64,000 bases of DNA. Origin: a virus. The position numbers were made by a program, and so were the translations under genes. The stretch spans positions 1-64,000 of the IMG/VR virus record IMGVR_UViG_3300020048_000040, one strand, 5' to 3'. The notes under the pieces are model-generated. The model had not been told where the DNA came from and did not search any database. It saw only the letters and a list, made by a program, of their open reading frames with translations. Below, in pieces: positions 13,402 to 19,045 of the stretch. Within the stretch, counting starts at the first letter, position 1, and every line of letters begins with the position of its first letter.

Positions 13402-14338
13402 AGAGTTATTAACTAATTGGTTATATTCAGGTTCTTTAGGCACTGTCTTTAGGGAATTTGATGATAACTTCGTTCGTTTTAATAATTATTTTATTTCCAA
13501 TCTAATCAAATATGAAGAGGAATTCGTTTATTCTGTTCTTATGTCTCCTGAAGGCGATAAAGAAAAACGTATATTTCTTCTTGCCAAATTTTCAACAATA
13601 GAGAATAAGAAAAGGTTCAAAGAAGCTTTTAAAAAAAACATAATAGATATAACTGATCTATATTGTTTTCTTTTTTATGTAAAGAAGATAAGAGGATTTG
13701 GTAGAACTATAAGAGATGTAGTTAAAGATTGGTTTCATTATACATTAACAAATAAAATAGAGGAATATGTTTCCAATAATAGTAATGGATACAAATGGAG
13801 TTTCAAGGATATACTGAAGGAATTTCATATAAAACCAAAGAATAAAAAAGAGGAAGAACTTTTTAATAAATATATGTATGAAGTATTTTTGGAAAGAGAG
13901 GAAACTTTATTTGAGTTATTAGAATATTATGAGAACCTAAAAGGAATTTACTTTCCTAACTCAAGAATTTTATTACATTATGAAAATTTAATCACTAAAA
14001 AGGTTAGAATATTGAAAACAAATAAGAAGATTTTAAATATAGTAAACTTTGATTTGGTTGGTAATGTGCAGAATAGTAAAATAAAGGCTTCTGAGTTTGT
14101 AAAACATATGGTTGCTGGTTTTGATAGATACTGTCCAAAGAAAGATGATTATGATGTTATTATTTTATGGAGTGATAAAAGAAACATGCATATCAATACA
14201 GACAAGAAAGTGATAAAAATAAACTTGAATGTTTCTAAGATGACAAATAAAAAAGAAGAAGATAATACATATAAGATACTAGGTTTTAATAATAAAACAT
14301 TGGAATTATTGGCAAATATATTGGGAGATAAAATATGA
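13391..14338 (+). CDS. Miniaturised Ro60/TROVE-like RNA-binding protein with degenerate vWA domain
   Basis: RGFGRTIRDVVKDWF and GYKWSFKDILKEFHIKP resemble Ro60 GRALRKA..DWY and GWSHKDLLRLSHLKP. YDVIILWSD and ILGFNNKTLELLANI resemble the vWA end. Frame is open back to CTG 13391 with AGGAG RBS. Confidence 0.75.
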   Translation: MLHKELLTNWLYSGSLGTVFREFDDNFVRFNNYFISNLIKYEEEFVYSVLMSPEGDKEKRIFLLAKFSTIENKKRFKEAFKKNIIDITDLYCFLFYVKKIRGFGRTIRDVVKDWFHYTLTNKIEEYVSNNSNGYKWSFKDILKEFHIKPKNKKEEELFNKYMYEVFLEREETLFELLEYYENLKGIYFPNSRILLHYENLITKKVRILKTNKKILNIVNFDLVGNVQNSKIKASEFVKHMVAGFDRYCPKKDDYDVIILWSDKRNMHINTDKKVIKINLNVSKMTNKKEEDNTYKILGFNNKTLELLANILGDKI

Positions 14339-14967
14339 AAATAATACAGGATCTATTGACTATAAATGAATTTTCCAGACCAAATAAAAAAATAAAGGAA
14401 GTTCGCTATATCGTATTACATTGGGTTGCTAATCCAAAATCTACTGTTGTAAACAATAGGGATTGGTTTGAAAAAAGGAAAGACGGTAAAGCTGGATATG
14501 GATCTGCTCATTATATCATTGATGGAGATATGGTATTACAATGTATACCTGATGAGGAACTTGCTTATCATGTGGGTTCTTCAAATGGATATAGTGATGC
14601 AACAAAAAAAGAATTTGGAGATGAAAGTCCAAATTATTATATGATAGGTATAGAACTTTGTCATCCTGATTGGACTGGAGAGTTTACAAAGGAAACTTTG
14701 GAAAGCGCAAAGAAATTATGTTATCTATTAATGATGGAATATGGTTTATCAGTAGAAAAGATTACTACACATTTCAATGTAGTTGGTTGGAAAAACTGTC
14801 CTAAATACTTTGTAGATAAACCAGAAGAATTCAAGAAGTTTAAAGAAAGTATAATGGAAATACCTTTCTTACAAAAAGACGATGATATATTGGTTGGTGT
14901 AAAAAATGGTAAATACAAAATATTGAAAGATGGTAAAACATTTTATAAGGAGCTTGATGATGTTTAA
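14335..14967 (+). CDS. N-acetylmuramoyl-L-alanine amidase (Amidase_2), endolysin
   Basis: IVLHW, SAHYII, E.AYHVG, IGIELC, H...WKNCP zinc-binding motifs. Confidence 0.92.
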   Translation: MKIIQDLLTINEFSRPNKKIKEVRYIVLHWVANPKSTVVNNRDWFEKRKDGKAGYGSAHYIIDGDMVLQCIPDEELAYHVGSSNGYSDATKKEFGDESPNYYMIGIELCHPDWTGEFTKETLESAKKLCYLLMMEYGLSVEKITTHFNVVGWKNCPKYFVDKPEEFKKFKESIMEIPFLQKDDDILVGVKNGKYKILKDGKTFYKELDDV

Positions 14968-15369: not shown

Positions 15370-15609
15370 TTATCTAACGCCAAATAACTCACTAACAAAT
15401 AGTTCCTGTATTCTTTTTTTAAGAGATGGTGGACTAAAAAAAGAAGTTAAATCATTCATAATTTCTTTATTAATAATAAATTTTTTTTGTTTATTACTTA
15501 TTTTATCAATAGCTATAATAGTATCATTTTCCAATTTAACTGCTTCATATTCAAAAAATTCATTTATATTAAAAACTATTTTTAATAATTCCTCATTAGC
15601 TGAAACCAT
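15370..15609 (-). CDS. Hypothetical protein
   Basis: 79-aa ORF with AAGGA RBS. Confidence 0.6.
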   Translation of the reverse strand: MVSANEELLKIVFNINEFFEYEAVKLENDTIIAIDKISNKQKKFIINKEIMNDLTSFFSPPSLKKRIQELFVSELFGVR

Positions 15610-15645: not shown

Positions 15646-18264
15646 TTATGAGCATTTTGAAAAACCACAAACACAAGAGATACAACCATCAATATATTTT
15701 AAATCAGCATTTCCACATTCAGGACATTTATGGGAAGTTTTTACTGCTTCTCCATCCTTTAAATATTTCTTCAAAACCCTTGCCACAACCTTACCGAATG
15801 AAACGAAAGAAGTGCTCTTTGTCAGTTGTTCTATAATAAATTCCAAAGGAACTCCGTGTCTTAAAGACATAGAAATCAATCTTGATAATGAGGCATATTC
15901 ATCTCCACAAGTTTTAGAAATATCTTCTATAGCTACTTTCTCTTCACCATTGGAAATTATCAAATCATAAAGACCTTTACCTCTTTTCCTGATTATTCCT
16001 TCCCTGTGTTTTTCAATGTCTATGACTTTCTGTAAATCATTAACAACAAACATTTCATAAATAGTATCTTCATATTTACCAACAGAAATTATATACTTGC
16101 TTCCATTGATAGATATCTCATGAATATCACAAACTAAATCATTTGGTCTCTTTGGCGCATTATGTCTATCAACCGGTCTATCCTTTTCTGATTTACTTAT
16201 TTCGAGAACGCCTTTCATACTCCCATTTGGATTATAAGAGGTAAACCCTTTTAGTCCTTTATCATAGGCATACATAAACAGATTTTTATATTGCTCTATT
16301 GTATAACCACTTGGAAGATTAGCTGTCTTCGAAATACTATGGTCAATATATTTCTGGAAAATTGCCTGAACATCAACAGATTTATATGGATCAATATCAA
16401 ATGTAGTTTTAAAGTAAGAAGGAAGAATTATTGTTTCCTCACTTGGAAACATTTTTTTATAAAGCAAAGTCCCATAATCATAAACTTTTTCTTTTGTAGT
16501 TTCATCACCTCTGCCAGTTCTAATATTTCTATCATATTCATAAGAGAATACTGGTTCTATTCCTGAGCTGCAATTGTTTCCAACTGTTAAAGATATAGTT
16601 CCTGTTGGAGCTATTGTATTCATAGCTATATTTCTAAGTCCATGTTTTTTAATCTCAGAACGAATATACTCGGGTAATTGTTTAATAAAATTAGCATCCA
16701 ATATTTTTTGTTTATTAAACTTCCTGAAACTTCCTTTTTCCTTTGCCAATTGAGTTGAACAGAAATAAGAACTATCTCTTAATGTTTGTGCTATTATTTC
16801 ACACTCTTCATTTCCATCTTCTTCTCCATATGTATAACCAAGCATAGTTAAAGCTGTAGCTAATCCAGTAAAGCCAAGGCCTATTCTTCTCCAGTCATAT
16901 GACATAGCTTTTATTTTTTCTAGTGGATATTCTGTAGCATCCAATACGTCATCTAAAAATCTAATTCCTAAATGTATATAACTATCAAATTCATCATAAT
17001 CAAAATAAGCATTTACGGTAAAAGCATTTTTCACAAACCTAGGAAGAAACAAAGCTCCAAGATCACACATACTATATGGGGCCATAACAATTTCACCGCA
17101 CCCTCTATTTATTATTTCATTTGCAATCCAACTATCAGTTGACTCCTCAAAAAAATCATATACTGTATGTAATCCATTCACATTTTCAATATTAATAATA
17201 TCAACTAAACCAGAAATACTATCTATTTTATCGCCTATTGTCAAAGTTGCTGCTTTCTTTTCTTTTCCATTACTATAAAATATATGAGAATCTGTTGCTT
17301 TTAAAGATTTGCCATTGCTAAAATGATACTCTTTTACTTTCATATTAAAATTTACTTCTTTTGTTTTAATTATTGAAGTGGTATTCTTTTTTGTTATAAT
17401 CTCATCGCCTTCATTTAATGTATCAGCCCTAACATAACCATTAGGAGTTAAAACTAGCGCATCACCAGTTAAGCAAGGATTACAAACATTAATTTCAAAA
17501 GCATAGTAGCCATTATTATATTTCTGTGCTTCATCAATATTTAGAATTCCAGGTTCGTTGTGAGTGAAAGCATTTTTTGTCATCAAGTCATAAAGATAAG
17601 TAGCTTTTAATGTTTTATAAATCTTTCCATTAAATACCAAATCCCATTCTTTGTCATTTTTAACTGCTTCCATAAATTTATTGGTAATGCCAACAGAAAT
17701 ATTAAATTGGGTTAATTGTTTATTCTCATCACCATTCTTTATGGTTATAAATTTTTCAATATCAGGATGATCTACATTTAATATACAGATATGGGCGGAT
17801 CTTCTTGATCCTCCTGTATGAATAACCTTTGCTGATTCATTAAATACTTTTAAAAACGAAAGTGGTCCAGAACTATCCCCACCGTGAGAGATAACAGAAC
17901 CTTCTGGCCTTAGTTTGGATATATTGAATCCAACTCCACCGCCTCCAGCAGAAATCAAGGCATCTTCTTTTATGGAATTGAAAATACCTTCCATACTGTC
18001 TTCTATATCAATGGTGAAACAATTATTATATTGTTTCAGCTTAGTATTTGGTCTAGCGTTGGCTAGTATTCTTCCGCCAGGAATAAAATAACCATTCTTC
18101 ATCATATTATAAAATAAATTTTCGTATTTCTCTCTATTCTTTTTCTTTTCAGCAGAAGCTATCTCTTTAGCTACTCCACTAAAAACTTCATCCGCATTCT
18201 TTTCTCCATTAAGCATGTACTTCTTTATAAAAATCTCTTCGCTTATTTTTTGTTCAAATTTCAT
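15646..18264 (-). CDS. nrdJ: Class II (adenosylcobalamin-dependent) ribonucleotide reductase, intein-containing
   Basis: PGGRILANA, NCF, GGGVG, NP[intein]CGE, RRIGLGFTGLA, TIAPTGTIS, SSGIEP, C-terminal TSCPD-like region and Zn ribbon. No ATP cone, no NrdB nearby. Confidence 0.93.
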   Translation of the reverse strand: MKFEQKISEEIFIKKYMLNGEKNADEVFSGVAKEIASAEKKKNREKYENLFYNMMKNGYFIPGGRILANARPNTKLKQYNNCFTIDIEDSMEGIFNSIKEDALISAGGGGVGFNISKLRPEGSVISHGGDSSGPLSFLKVFNESAKVIHTGGSRRSAHICILNVDHPDIEKFITIKNGDENKQLTQFNISVGITNKFMEAVKNDKEWDLVFNGKIYKTLKATYLYDLMTKNAFTHNEPGILNIDEAQKYNNGYYAFEINVCNPCLTGDALVLTPNGYVRADTLNEGDEIITKKNTTSIIKTKEVNFNMKVKEYHFSNGKSLKATDSHIFYSNGKEKKAATLTIGDKIDSISGLVDIINIENVNGLHTVYDFFEESTDSWIANEIINRGCGEIVMAPYSMCDLGALFLPRFVKNAFTVNAYFDYDEFDSYIHLGIRFLDDVLDATEYPLEKIKAMSYDWRRIGLGFTGLATALTMLGYTYGEEDGNEECEIIAQTLRDSSYFCSTQLAKEKGSFRKFNKQKILDANFIKQLPEYIRSEIKKHGLRNIAMNTIAPTGTISLTVGNNCSSGIEPVFSYEYDRNIRTGRGDETTKEKVYDYGTLLYKKMFPSEETIILPSYFKTTFDIDPYKSVDVQAIFQKYIDHSISKTANLPSGYTIEQYKNLFMYAYDKGLKGFTSYNPNGSMKGVLEISKSEKDRPVDRHNAPKRPNDLVCDIHEISINGSKYIISVGKYEDTIYEMFVVNDLQKVIDIEKHREGIIRKRGKGLYDLIISNGEEKVAIEDISKTCGDEYASLSRLISMSLRHGVPLEFIIEQLTKSTSFVSFGKVVARVLKKYLKDGEAVKTSHKCPECGNADLKYIDGCISCVCGFSKCS
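17101..17475 (-). mobile_element. 125-aa mini-intein (Hint domain) in NrdJ with atypical C-terminus (NRG/C)
   Basis: Block A CLTGDALVLTPNG, block B ATDSHIF, block F TVYDF. Interrupts NP|CGE. No endonuclease domain. Confidence 0.88.
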
Positions 18265-18305: not shown

Positions 18306-18334
18306 ATTATAACACTAAATATAGCTTCTGTCAA
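18306..18334 (-). promoter_or_regulatory. Consensus sigma70 promoter (extended -10) for nrdJ
   Basis: TTGACA-17 nt-TATAAT, with TG one base before the -10. Confidence 0.9.
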
Positions 18335-18356: not shown

Positions 18357-18560
18357 TTATTCAAATCCTTCTATTAAAGCTCTTTTAATTCCACATCCGC
18401 TATTATATATAATTTTTAATCTTTCTTCACCTATACTTTTTAAATCATCTTCGCTCCACCCATCCAAACTATTGGTATATTCTGTTAATATTTTATACCA
18501 TTCCTCATAAGAGGAATTTTTATTTGTTGGATTTATTTTATCCAGATCTTTTGCTTTCAC
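18357..18560 (-). CDS. Hypothetical protein
   Basis: 67 aa, GTGA overlap with the dut stop. Confidence 0.6.
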   Translation of the reverse strand: MKAKDLDKINPTNKNSSYEEWYKILTEYTNSLDGWSEDDLKSIGEERLKIIYNSGCGIKRALIEGFE

Positions 18561-19045
18561 TTCTTATCACCGATACTTCCAGAACTTCCAAAACCTTTAC
18601 TCCCTCTTTCTGTATCAGAAACTTCTCCTAGTACTATACGATCAACAAACGGAACTTTATGTAAAATCATTTGAGCAATCTTATCATGTTTATTTATTAT
18701 GATAGGAACATTAGAAGTGTTATAAATAATAACACCTATATCTCCCCGATAGGTTTCGTCTATAATTCCAGCCATAGTTCTGGTTCCTTTTTTATAAGCA
18801 TTACCAGAGGTATCCTCAACTTTAAAATAATATTTATACTTTATATCGAATAACCAATAAAAGAATTTTTGAAATGGGTTTAGTTCTTCATCTACCTGAA
18901 CAGCTATATTTGTTTTTACAAGATATCTTTCTTTGACTGGTATGATTGCTTCTTCTGCTGAATATAAATCCATACCGGCGTCTGAGGTATGATTGAACTT
19001 TGGAATGGTTGCATGTTCGCTTAACATCTTTACTATTATTTTCAT
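18557..19045 (-). CDS. dut: Trimeric dUTPase
   Basis: AGMDL, GIIDETYRG, IAQMI, RGSKGFGSSG motifs. Confidence 0.92.
   Translation of the reverse strand: MKIIVKMLSEHATIPKFNHTSDAGMDLYSAEEAIIPVKERYLVKTNIAVQVDEELNPFQKFFYWLFDIKYKYYFKVEDTSGNAYKKGTRTMAGIIDETYRGDIGVIIYNTSNVPIIINKHDKIAQMILHKVPFVDRIVLGEVSDTERGSKGFGSSGSIGDKK

What the first reader, a model, noticed from the sequence alone, without database searches (positions are those of the whole stretch)
17101..17475. Mini-intein in NrdJ ending in Arg-Gly instead of His-Asn
Seen: a 125-aa Hint domain splits the catalytic NP|CGE motif. Cys1, block B TxxH and block F VYD are intact, but the end reads ...TDSWIANEIINRG|CGEI (AAT AGA GGG TGC). Established: splicing finishes by cyclisation of a terminal Asn (rarely Gln/Asp), which Gly cannot do, and the +1 Cys is the essential thiyl-radical residue. 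The rest of nrdJ is intact with a perfect promoter. Inference: either a novel branch-resolution chemistry or trans-acting factor, or a conditional switch on RNR. This is the strongest candidate for new biochemistry in the window.
Basis: partly seen in the sequence, partly recalled or inferred. Interest (0 to 1): 0.85.

Follow-up and report, generated by a model that had tools for sequence, protein, structure and literature searches.

The report
Glycine-ended intein in phage NrdJ
The insert at the catalytic cysteine of this phage's B12-dependent ribonucleotide reductase is a real intein ending in glycine, one of a large conserved group that probably splices without the terminal asparagine that reviews treat as required.

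Summary
A 125-aa Hint domain (17101..17475, minus strand) sits between NP and CGE of an otherwise intact NrdJ and ends Arg-Gly|Cys.

It is not a sequencing error or a lone broken allele. All 5 close relatives end in Gly. Among 199 junctions parsed at this RNR site, 129 end in Gly.

The Gly-enders:
- fall on one side of a single tree branch;
- occur in at least 7 bacterial phyla and in phage-like contigs;
- often carry a LAGLIDADG endonuclease (7 of 7 tested);
- use all four Gly codons.

In 5 of 5 Chloroflexota genomes checked, the Gly-ended-intein RNR is the only RNR detected. So these inteins very probably come out.

All three step-3 residues are replaced together. The block-F His becomes Asp in 129 of 129, the penultimate His becomes Arg or Gln, and Asn becomes Gly. 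Asp-ended relatives carry Leu/Tyr/Phe at that block-F position instead.

Reviews from 2009 to 2023 list only Asn, Gln, Asp or Glu as terminal residues. Splicing itself is untested.

This scan has reported the same clade before on other DNA.

The parts
15646..18264 (-). nrdJ precursor ORF, 872 aa (class II, adenosylcobalamin-dependent ribonucleotide reductase with a C-terminal TSCPD/zinc-finger tail), interrupted by the intein
   Evidence: TIGR02504 493.5 bits above cut-off 399.95; PF02867, PF00317, PF12637; phrog_84
17101..17475 (-). 125-aa Gly-ended mini-intein (HINT fold), precursor residues 264-388
   Evidence: profile breaks at 264 and 388/389
17473..17475 (-). Cys1, the intein's N-terminal nucleophile, directly after Asn-Pro of the host motif
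   Evidence: first residue is Cys in 197 of 198 inteins parsed at this site
17284..17295 (-). Block B Thr-x-x-His (TDSH; intein T61 and H64)
   Evidence: Thr and His invariant in 18 of 18 aligned Gly-enders
17128..17163 (-). Block F: VYD (F:4 Asp, intein D107), then Asp (D114) at the position of the canonical block-F His, then Trp (W116)
   Evidence: Asp at this position in 129 of 129 and Trp in 128 of 129 Gly-enders
17101..17106 (-). Arg124-Gly125, the intein's last two residues (AGA GGG), in place of His-Asn
   Evidence: penultimate residue Arg 107, Gln 15, Val 4, Leu 2, Lys 1 of 129; all Gly and Arg codons in use
17092..17100 (-). Cys+1-Gly-Glu. Cys+1 is the C-extein nucleophile and, by homology to the NPCGE motif, the thiyl-radical cysteine of the RNR
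   Evidence: The role of this Cys is established knowledge of RNRs and was not tested here
18306..18334 (-). sigma-70-type promoter-like site upstream of nrdJ (TTGACA, 17 nt, TATAAT with TG)
   Evidence: 12 of 12. This is a consensus match only; the region as a whole has no more such sites than shuffles give

Best explanation
This is a functional self-splicing mini-intein of a large Gly-ended clade that targets the NP|CGE site of ribonucleotide reductases. Steps 1 and 2 probably run as in class 1 inteins. Cys1, helped by block B Thr/His and the block-F Asp (F:4), makes the thioester, which then passes to Cys+1. Step 3 cannot be cyclisation of the last residue, because Gly has no side chain. 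The clade has replaced all three step-3 residues together: block-F His (F:13) by Asp, penultimate His by Arg/Gln, and Asn by Gly. My preferred mechanism is that the F:13 Asp carboxylate cuts the Gly-Cys+1 bond. It would act either as a general base for water or by forming a transient anhydride. Arg would stabilise the oxyanion, and Gly would leave room for the attack. Shown here: the anatomy, the clade, its conservation, its mobility domains, and that it interrupts the only RNR in several genomes. Inferred: that it splices. Speculative: the particular chemistry.
For: 1) Intein hallmarks are intact: Cys1, TxxH, VYD, Cys+1 and the HINT fold.
2) The ending is conserved. All 5 close relatives (P0003-P0007) end in Gly. 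Of 199 parsed junctions, 129 end in Gly. Of 196 distinct splicing domains, 126 are Gly-enders.
3) The Gly-enders lie on one side of one branch: SH-like support 99, and 94 with the last 12 residues removed.
4) Selection acts on the residues themselves. Four Gly codons, six Arg codons and both Asp codons are used across 39 loci.
5) All 7 large Gly-enders tested carry a LAGLIDADG_3 domain inside the intein. 79 of 127 are at least 300 aa long.
6) In 5 of 5 Chloroflexota genomes (4.3-10.4 Mb), the Gly-ended-intein RNR is the only PF02867 match and there is no PF13597 (NrdD) match. In five further MAGs, no NrdD was found (0 of 5). Four have matches consistent with one RNR gene, and one (G007) has fragments of at least two.
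7) Covariation at the block-F His position: Asp in 129 of 129 Gly-enders, Leu/Tyr/Phe in 16 of 16 Asp-enders, His/Asn/Ser in the 38 Asn-enders. A carboxylate is therefore present either on the last residue or at F:13.
8) The review PMC4031507 (section 6 read) names His F:13, His G:6 and Asn G:7 as the step-3 catalysts. Those are exactly the three replaced positions.
Against: No experiment or proteomic datum here shows splicing. The sample is biased: the profile was built from Gly-enders and included extein flanks, and only the best 150 of 2628 hits and 80 of 397 loci were returned. So the shares are not frequencies. The ten genomes are MAGs and the tool gave no completeness for them. FastTree on 103-116 columns leaves many forks unresolved, and the root is unknown. 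I could not read model coordinates, so the closeness of Asp114 to the scissile bond rests on the published role of F:13. As I recall it, the Asp-ended Chy RIR1 intein still showed C-terminal cleavage with Ala at the end. That would argue that a terminal carboxylate is not strictly needed in this lineage (recalled; the paper was not held).
Confidence: 0.62

Rival explanations
1. It is a self-splicing intein, but the last cut is made by a thiol. One route: Cys1, freed after step 2, attacks the Gly carbonyl and gives a thiolactone that rearranges to a head-to-tail circular intein. Another route: the Gly-Cys+1 bond itself undergoes an N-to-S acyl shift.
For: Cys1 and Cys+1 are present in every Gly-ender parsed: 129 of 129 are followed by Cys, and the first residue is Cys in 197 of 198. 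The two ends of a HINT domain lie side by side in the model and in solved inteins. Gly before Cys is the arrangement at which Hedgehog and many N-terminal intein junctions make their thioester (established knowledge, recalled).
Against: Cys1 and Cys+1 are just as invariant in the Asn-ended inteins at this site, so they do not discriminate. This route does not explain the perfect Asp/Gly against Leu/Asp covariation. After step 2 the Cys+1 thiol is occupied.
Confidence: 0.12
2. The Hint domain does not splice by itself. It stops at the thioester or branched stage, or only cuts its N-terminal junction, and acts as a switch that keeps the RNR off until a condition or a trans-acting protease completes the cut.
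For: All residues known to catalyse step 3 are absent. The insert sits on the radical cysteine, so the precursor must be inactive (inference from RNR structure).
Against: The same ending occurs in phage-like contigs and in at least 7 named bacterial phyla. A helper would therefore have to be near-universal. It interrupts the only RNR found in 5 of 5 genomes. LAGLIDADG endonucleases are kept, as expected for homing inteins whose host gene stays functional. I did not compare gene neighbourhoods for a conserved helper.
Confidence: 0.13
3. The intein in this phage is decayed and dead, and its nrdJ is an inactive remnant.
For: It is a mini-intein without an endonuclease. Only 54% of the virus genome is estimated to be in the record, so another RNR could lie outside it. 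It is the only Gly-ender with Glu at position -6, where 122 of 128 have Gly.
Against: The ORF is open and scores as NrdJ over its full length. The six members of its subfamily are 57-82% identical in this region for the four aligned, yet keep Cys1, TxxH, VYD, Asp, Trp, Gly and Cys+1 invariant. Two relatives (P0003, P0005) also carry complete, ordinary His-Asn inteins elsewhere in the same gene, and the fragment P0004 holds the ends of two more. That fits a gene under selection.
Confidence: 0.08
4. Sequencing or assembly error, or a recoded codon, hides a normal His-Asn end.
For: None found.
Against: A Logan contig spans the junction without a difference. Five independent relatives and 129 junctions share the Gly. 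All four Gly codons are used.
Confidence: 0.01

Closest known systems
Asp-ended RNR inteins, of which the Carboxydothermus hydrogenoformans Chy RIR1 intein is the studied case (Amitai, Dassa and Pietrokovski 2004. I saw only its entry in the reference list of PMC4031507. Its content is recalled, because the paper was not held)
   Same: The 16 Asp-enders in my sample sit at the same NP|CGE site. They share the Trp two residues after the block-F His position (16 of 16), Ser at G:5 (16 of 16) and the F:4 Asp. As recalled, the Chy intein splices, and mutants with a non-cyclising end still cut their C-terminal junction.
   Different: They end in Asp, which can cyclise. They have Leu/Tyr/Phe, not Asp, at the block-F His position, and a hydrophobic penultimate residue rather than Arg. 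In the tree, the Gly-enders sit on their own side of a branch.
Canonical class 1 inteins at the same RNR site (His-Asn-ended, for example P0085 and L016 here)
   Same: Same insertion point, Cys1, TxxH, VYD and Cys+1. The block F to G register has the same length. Same HINT fold.
   Different: They keep block-F His/Asn/Ser, mostly a penultimate His (25 of 38) and a terminal Asn. NCBIfam's intein C-terminal model TIGR01443 hit the one Asn-ender tested and none of the 3 Gly-enders tested.
Gln-ended RNR inteins. The reviews cite the Chilo iridescent virus RNR intein (passage in PMC4031507)
   Same: An atypical last residue in an RNR intein. 15 Gln-enders occur at this site in my sample.
   Different: Gln can cyclise. 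The Gln-enders here carry Cys at F:4 (15 of 15) and Thr at G:5 (15 of 15), which is a different signature.
gp41-1 mini-intein (PDB 6qaz), the nearest solved structure
   Same: Fold: target-normalised TM 0.90, rmsd 1.7 over 131 columns.
   Different: 18% identity. No solved chain matches the Gly-ender profile better than E 7e-6, and the alignments printed for the four best cover only its first two thirds.
Hedgehog and bacterial intein-like (BIL) Hint domains
   Same: HINT fold (1at0, 2lwy and 6y75 are among the hits). Autoprocessing at a Gly|Cys bond (recalled). They do not need a terminal Asn (recalled).
   Different: Those domains are not precise insertions into a conserved catalytic motif of an essential enzyme with a Cys+1 that restores it. 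Here, removal rebuilds NP-CGE exactly.

Membership tests
Intein (class 1 type) | HINT fold | tested here: met
   AlphaFold2 pLDDT 86.6, and 93-97 per 10-residue block over the domain. Foldseek top hits are all inteins, with target-normalised TM up to 0.90.
Intein (class 1 type) | In-frame insert in a conserved host site; removing it restores the host motif | tested here: met
   NrdJ profiles break at residue 264 and resume at 388/389. NP + CGE.
Intein (class 1 type) | N-terminal Cys/Ser nucleophile, block B TxxH, block F Asp (F:4) | tested here: met
   Invariant in 18 of 18 aligned Gly-enders.
Intein (class 1 type) | Cys/Ser/Thr at +1 | tested here: met
   Cys+1.
Intein (class 1 type) | Terminal Asn (or Gln/Asp/Glu) able to cyclise | tested here: not met
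   Gly125. The reviews list only Asn, Gln, Asp, Glu.
Intein (class 1 type) | Penultimate His (G:6) and block-F His (F:13); both are helpers and are dispensable in some inteins | tested here: not met
   Arg124 and Asp114.
Intein (class 1 type) | Excision with ligation of the exteins | not testable with these tools
   Inferred only, from sole-RNR genomes and from conservation.
Gly-ended RNR intein clade (operational, defined here) | [ST]-Asp-x-Trp in block F, then x-[Arg/Gln]-Gly directly before Cys-[Gly/Ser/Ala]-Glu | tested here: met
   The window reads T-D-S-W ... N-R-G|C-G-E. Per-position counts over 128 members are.
Gly-ended RNR intein clade (operational, defined here) | Placement among Gly-enders in a tree built without the ending | tested here: met
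   Gly-enders are one side of a branch (support 94). The window sits in a set of 5, then 11, Gly-enders with supports of 96 and 95.
Class 3 inteins | Cys at block F position 4 and Thr at G:5 (the WCT triplet, passage in PMC2807308) | tested here: not met
   F:4 is Asp and G:5 is Asn.
Bacterial intein-like / pretoxin Hint domains | Hint domain outside conserved sites of housekeeping enzymes, without a +1 nucleophile that restores a host motif (recalled definition) | tested here: not met
   PF07591 scores 29.4 against a cut-off of 27.7 on the isolated domain, but 21.6 in the whole protein. The context is a classic intein site.
NrdJ, class II ribonucleotide reductase (host protein) | Match to the equivalog model above its cut-off, with the NP-C-G-E motif restored | tested here: met
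   TIGR02504 scores 493.5 against 399.95.

The most novel reading that the evidence does not exclude
Gly-ended inteins are a fourth mechanistic class of protein splicing. They excise autocatalytically, but they resolve the branched intermediate without cyclising their last residue. They would use a relocated carboxylate (block-F Asp with Arg). In the boldest version they would use the freed Cys1 thiol, which would release a head-to-tail circular intein.
Probability: 0.55. Interest if true: 0.9.

Novelty: new variant of a known kind. Interest (0 to 1): 0.8.

Why it matters
Reviews from 2009 to 2023 describe the last cut of protein splicing as cyclisation of a terminal Asn, or of Gln or Asp. A large, mobile, conserved clade that ends in Gly and interrupts the only RNR of its hosts would mean that nature has another way to make this cut.

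That would add a mechanistic class to intein biology. It could also give protein engineers an intein whose C-terminal cleavage does not leave a succinimide and does not depend on Asn.

Standard models miss these inteins. TIGR01443 hit 0 of 3 tested. Every Pfam Hint or intein family scored below its cut-off on the whole window protein, and none was reported for P0009. This may explain why surveys have not described them.

For this phage, dNTP supply depends on an untested maturation step at the radical cysteine.

Tried and rejected
Searches that found nothing:
- No relatives turned up in viral contigs.
- No match in the phage collection by blastn or tblastn.
- No RNA holder was listed.
- In one search, X1's contigs do not cover 17063..17120. 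Only X2's contig spans the junction. All runs belong to one study and may be the source sample.

Steps I could not complete:
I therefore had DNA for only one close relative (L002) and did not attempt dN/dS, which would in any case be saturated at about 60% identity.
- Amitai et al. 2004 was not held.
- Model coordinates are not returned, so I measured no distances.
- Supplements were closed and I did not ask for them. The InBase motif tables and the supplemental tables of PMC2807308 could list endings that I did not see.

Readings I rejected:
- Asn at -3 as the cyclising residue. It is not conserved, and the next residue is Arg.
- A shifted junction that keeps Cys1 and removes Cys+1. It gives the same mature sequence and cannot be excluded from sequence alone. 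No chemistry supports it, and the Asn-ended relatives fix the register.
- Recoding of GGG.
- A second RNR in the virus record. None was found, but the record is only about 54% complete.

Literature:
- Searches found no paper describing an intein that ends in Gly.
- These searches cover open-access full text and bioRxiv only.

Sample limits:
- All Gly-enders in the sample are followed by Cys of the RNR motif. The profile included extein flanks, so this does not show that they are confined to this site.
- The Gly count is 129 and 128. One record was parsed differently.
Full report
**What is there.**
- The minus-strand ORF 15646..18264 encodes an 872-aa protein.
- It matches the RNR barrel domain over profile positions 2-523 of 523 (PF02867).
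- It scores 493.5 bits on NCBIfam's NrdJ equivalog TIGR02504, whose cut-off is 399.95.
- The NrdJ and RNR profiles stop at residue 264 and resume at 388/389.
- The 125 residues between them (window 17101..17475, minus strand) begin with Cys and end Asn-Arg-Gly. Cys-Gly-Glu follows.
- Block B reads TDSH and block F reads VYDFFEESTDSW.
- A dUTPase gene lies upstream. A 12-of-12 sigma-70-like site with a TG extension precedes nrdJ.

**It is a HINT domain of the intein kind.**
- On the isolated domain, Pfam gives weak Hint-family hits. PT-HINT scores 29.4 bits, and the others fall below their cut-offs.
- By sequence, the nearest solved chains are a bacterial intein-like domain and the Spl DnaX mini-intein. 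The DnaX alignment covers intein residues 2-122 and chain residues 3-134 of 137, so it reaches the C-terminal block.
- The AlphaFold2 model was built on an alignment of 18 Gly-ended relatives. It has mean pLDDT 86.6, and 93-97 per 10-residue block over the domain.
- Foldseek places the model on gp41-1, Ssp DnaB, MchDnaB-1 and other mini-inteins. The gp41-1 hit (6qaz) has a target-normalised TM of 0.90.

**The Gly end is conserved, not an accident.**
- A word-indexed search with the intein region found four relatives, 56-81% identical. All end x-[Arg/Leu]-Gly before Cys-Gly-Glu.
- A profile of these five sequences was run against 1.84 billion representatives. It gave 2628 hits at E up to 0.001, 224 at 1e-10 and 4 at 1e-30. 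The best 150 were returned, including one more close relative, P0007.
- A genome-contig scan found 397 tblastn-positive stretches among 600 pattern matches, and the best 80 were kept. A metagenome scan gave one locus, L002, which lies on a contig of the same length as the one recorded for P0004.
- I located the C-terminal junction with a small HMM of block F, block G and the first four extein residues. I kept the junctions that are followed by Cys-[Gly/Ser/Ala]-Glu.
- That yielded 199 junctions: 131 from the protein set and 68 from 81 loci. I dropped 7 proteins whose best hit lay at another site, the isolated domain P0002, and 13 loci without a junction in the fetched DNA.
- The last residue is Gly in 129, Asn in 38, Asp in 16, Gln in 15 and Arg in 1.
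- These shares are not natural frequencies. The profile came from Gly-enders and included extein flanks.

**The Gly-enders are one coherent, diverse and mobile group.**
- After removing duplicates there are 196 distinct splicing domains, of which 126 are Gly-ended.
- In a FastTree of these, the Gly label needs one change (SH-like support 99). With the last 12 residues left out of the data it still needs one change (support 94). The window sits inside starred sets of 5 and then 11 Gly-enders. Many forks are unresolved and the root is unknown.
- The window's intein is 34-43% identical to the bacterial members.
- Gly-ended loci come from Chloroflexota (19), Rokuibacteriota (5), three candidate-phyla-radiation phyla (5), Pseudomonadota (2), and Nitrospinota, Acidobacteriota and Methylomirabilota (1 each).
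- Of 127 Gly-enders, 45 are mini-inteins under 200 aa and 79 are at least 300 aa.
- All 7 large ones that I scanned carry a LAGLIDADG_3 domain inside the intein.
- Across 39 loci, the terminal Gly uses GGG, GGA, GGC and GGT. The penultimate Arg uses all six Arg codons, and the block-F Asp uses both of its codons. This indicates selection on the residues and rules out recoding or error.

**They very probably come out of the protein.**
- I took five Chloroflexota genomes (4.3-10.4 Mb) whose RNR carries a roughly 362-aa Gly-ended intein.
- In each, the only PF02867 match is that gene. Two matches in G002 and in G003 lie in one ORF. None has a PF13597 (NrdD) match. The controls rang as expected.
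- In five further, more fragmented MAGs from other phyla, none had NrdD. G006, G009 and G010 have their matches on one contig. G008's matches lie on two contigs and fit one gene. G007 has fragments of at least two genes.
- A cell needs an RNR. The insert sits at the tip of the loop that carries the radical cysteine (established RNR knowledge), so an unexcised 14-40 kDa domain there should kill the enzyme.
- This is inference. Completeness of these MAGs was not given.
- The virus record itself holds only this RNR and no NrdD, but it is only about 54% complete.

**What changed, and what that suggests.**
- The review PMC4031507 (section 6 read in full) names three step-3 catalysts: His F:13, His G:6 and Asn G:7.
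- A passage of PMC2807308 says that block F positions 8 and 9 are gaps in inteins with a short loop. The residue seven places after the F:4 Asp is therefore F:13.
- In Gly-enders, that position is Asp in 129 of 129. Two residues later, Trp occurs in 128 of 129.
- G:6 is Arg 107, Gln 15, Val 4, Leu 2, Lys 1. G:5 is Ser 80, Gln 33, Asn 14, His 2.
- In the 16 Asp-enders, F:13 is Leu 12, Tyr 3, Phe 1 and never Asp, and G:6 is mostly hydrophobic.
- In the 38 Asn-enders, F:13 is His 21, Asn 10, Ser 7.
- So a carboxylate is present either on the last residue or at F:13 with Gly at the end, and the whole step-3 apparatus was exchanged together.
- I read this as a relocated carboxylate that cuts the Gly-Cys bond, by activating water or through an anhydride. 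Arg would be the oxyanion partner, and Gly would make room for the attack.
- Thiol-based routes remain possible. One is Cys1 attack giving a circular intein. Another is an N-to-S shift at Gly-Cys.
- None of this chemistry is shown.

**Comparison with what is known.**
- Passages from four papers list the possible last residues:
  - PMC4031507 (2014): Asn, Gln, Asp, Glu.
  - PMC10663303 (2023): Asn, or Gln or Asp.
- Nine full-text searches found no description of a Gly-ended intein.
- PMC4760082 contains none of my search terms. PMC3653736 and the 2025 actinobacteriophage preprint discuss RNR inteins or non-canonical endonucleases, not endings.
- Subscription papers, InBase tables and supplements were not visible to me.
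- The closest studied case is the Asp-ended Chy RIR1 intein. I cite it from memory and from a reference entry only.
- Standard models partly miss the clade. TIGR01443 hit the Asn-ender P0085 but none of P0001, P0009 and P0012. TIGR01445 scored below its cut-off for two of the three Gly-enders. No solved structure matches the clade's profile better than E 7e-6.

**Earlier notes of this scan.**
- After my own analysis, a word look-up showed that follow-up agents had reached the same reading on four other genomes (e1-3731592, e1-3819419, e1-5771992, e1-1294355).
- These are AI notes, not independent evidence. They agree with my reading and did not change it.

**Verdict.**
- The element is a new member of a large Gly-ended intein clade that I could not find described in print.
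- The clade is a new variant of a known kind, and it makes an open mechanistic question directly testable.
- This window adds a short, endonuclease-free, 125-aa phage member that would be a convenient subject for experiments.

Noticed in passing
P0003 (relative of the window protein), residues about 259-620: The Gly-ended intein is followed, after only four extein residues (CGEI), by a second intein. That one is canonical, His-Asn-ended and carries an HNH-type domain (PF13392). The Gly-ender therefore seems to work with a very short native C-extein stretch.
   Followed up: partly
Proteins such as P0086, P0100, P0113, P0128 and P0152: The 15 Gln-ended inteins at the same NP|CGE site all have Cys at block F position 4 and Thr at G:5, which resembles the class 3 signature. 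Yet they start with Cys1.
   Followed up: no
P0129: A single intein at this site ends Arg-Arg before CGE, with Cys at F:4. It is another ending that cannot cyclise, seen only once.
   Followed up: no
window 17116..17118 (-), intein residue 120: The window's intein is the only one of 128 Gly-enders with Glu at position -6, where 122 have Gly.
   Followed up: no
window 18357..18560 (-) and 15370..15609 (-): Two small ORFs (67 and 79 aa) flank nrdJ and have no PHROG match. The 67-aa ORF lies between dut and nrdJ.
   Followed up: no
window 18557..19045 (-) and 14335..14967 (+): A dUTPase (phrog_135) lies directly upstream of nrdJ, and an amidase-type endolysin (phrog_9611) lies nearby.
   Followed up: partly
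P0005 and P0004 (relatives): The same nrdJ gene family carries up to two further inteins at other sites. P0005 has a LAGLIDADG intein inserted before the residues SAH. The fragment P0004 holds the end of an intein before the same SAH residues and the start of another near its own C-terminal end.
   Followed up: no
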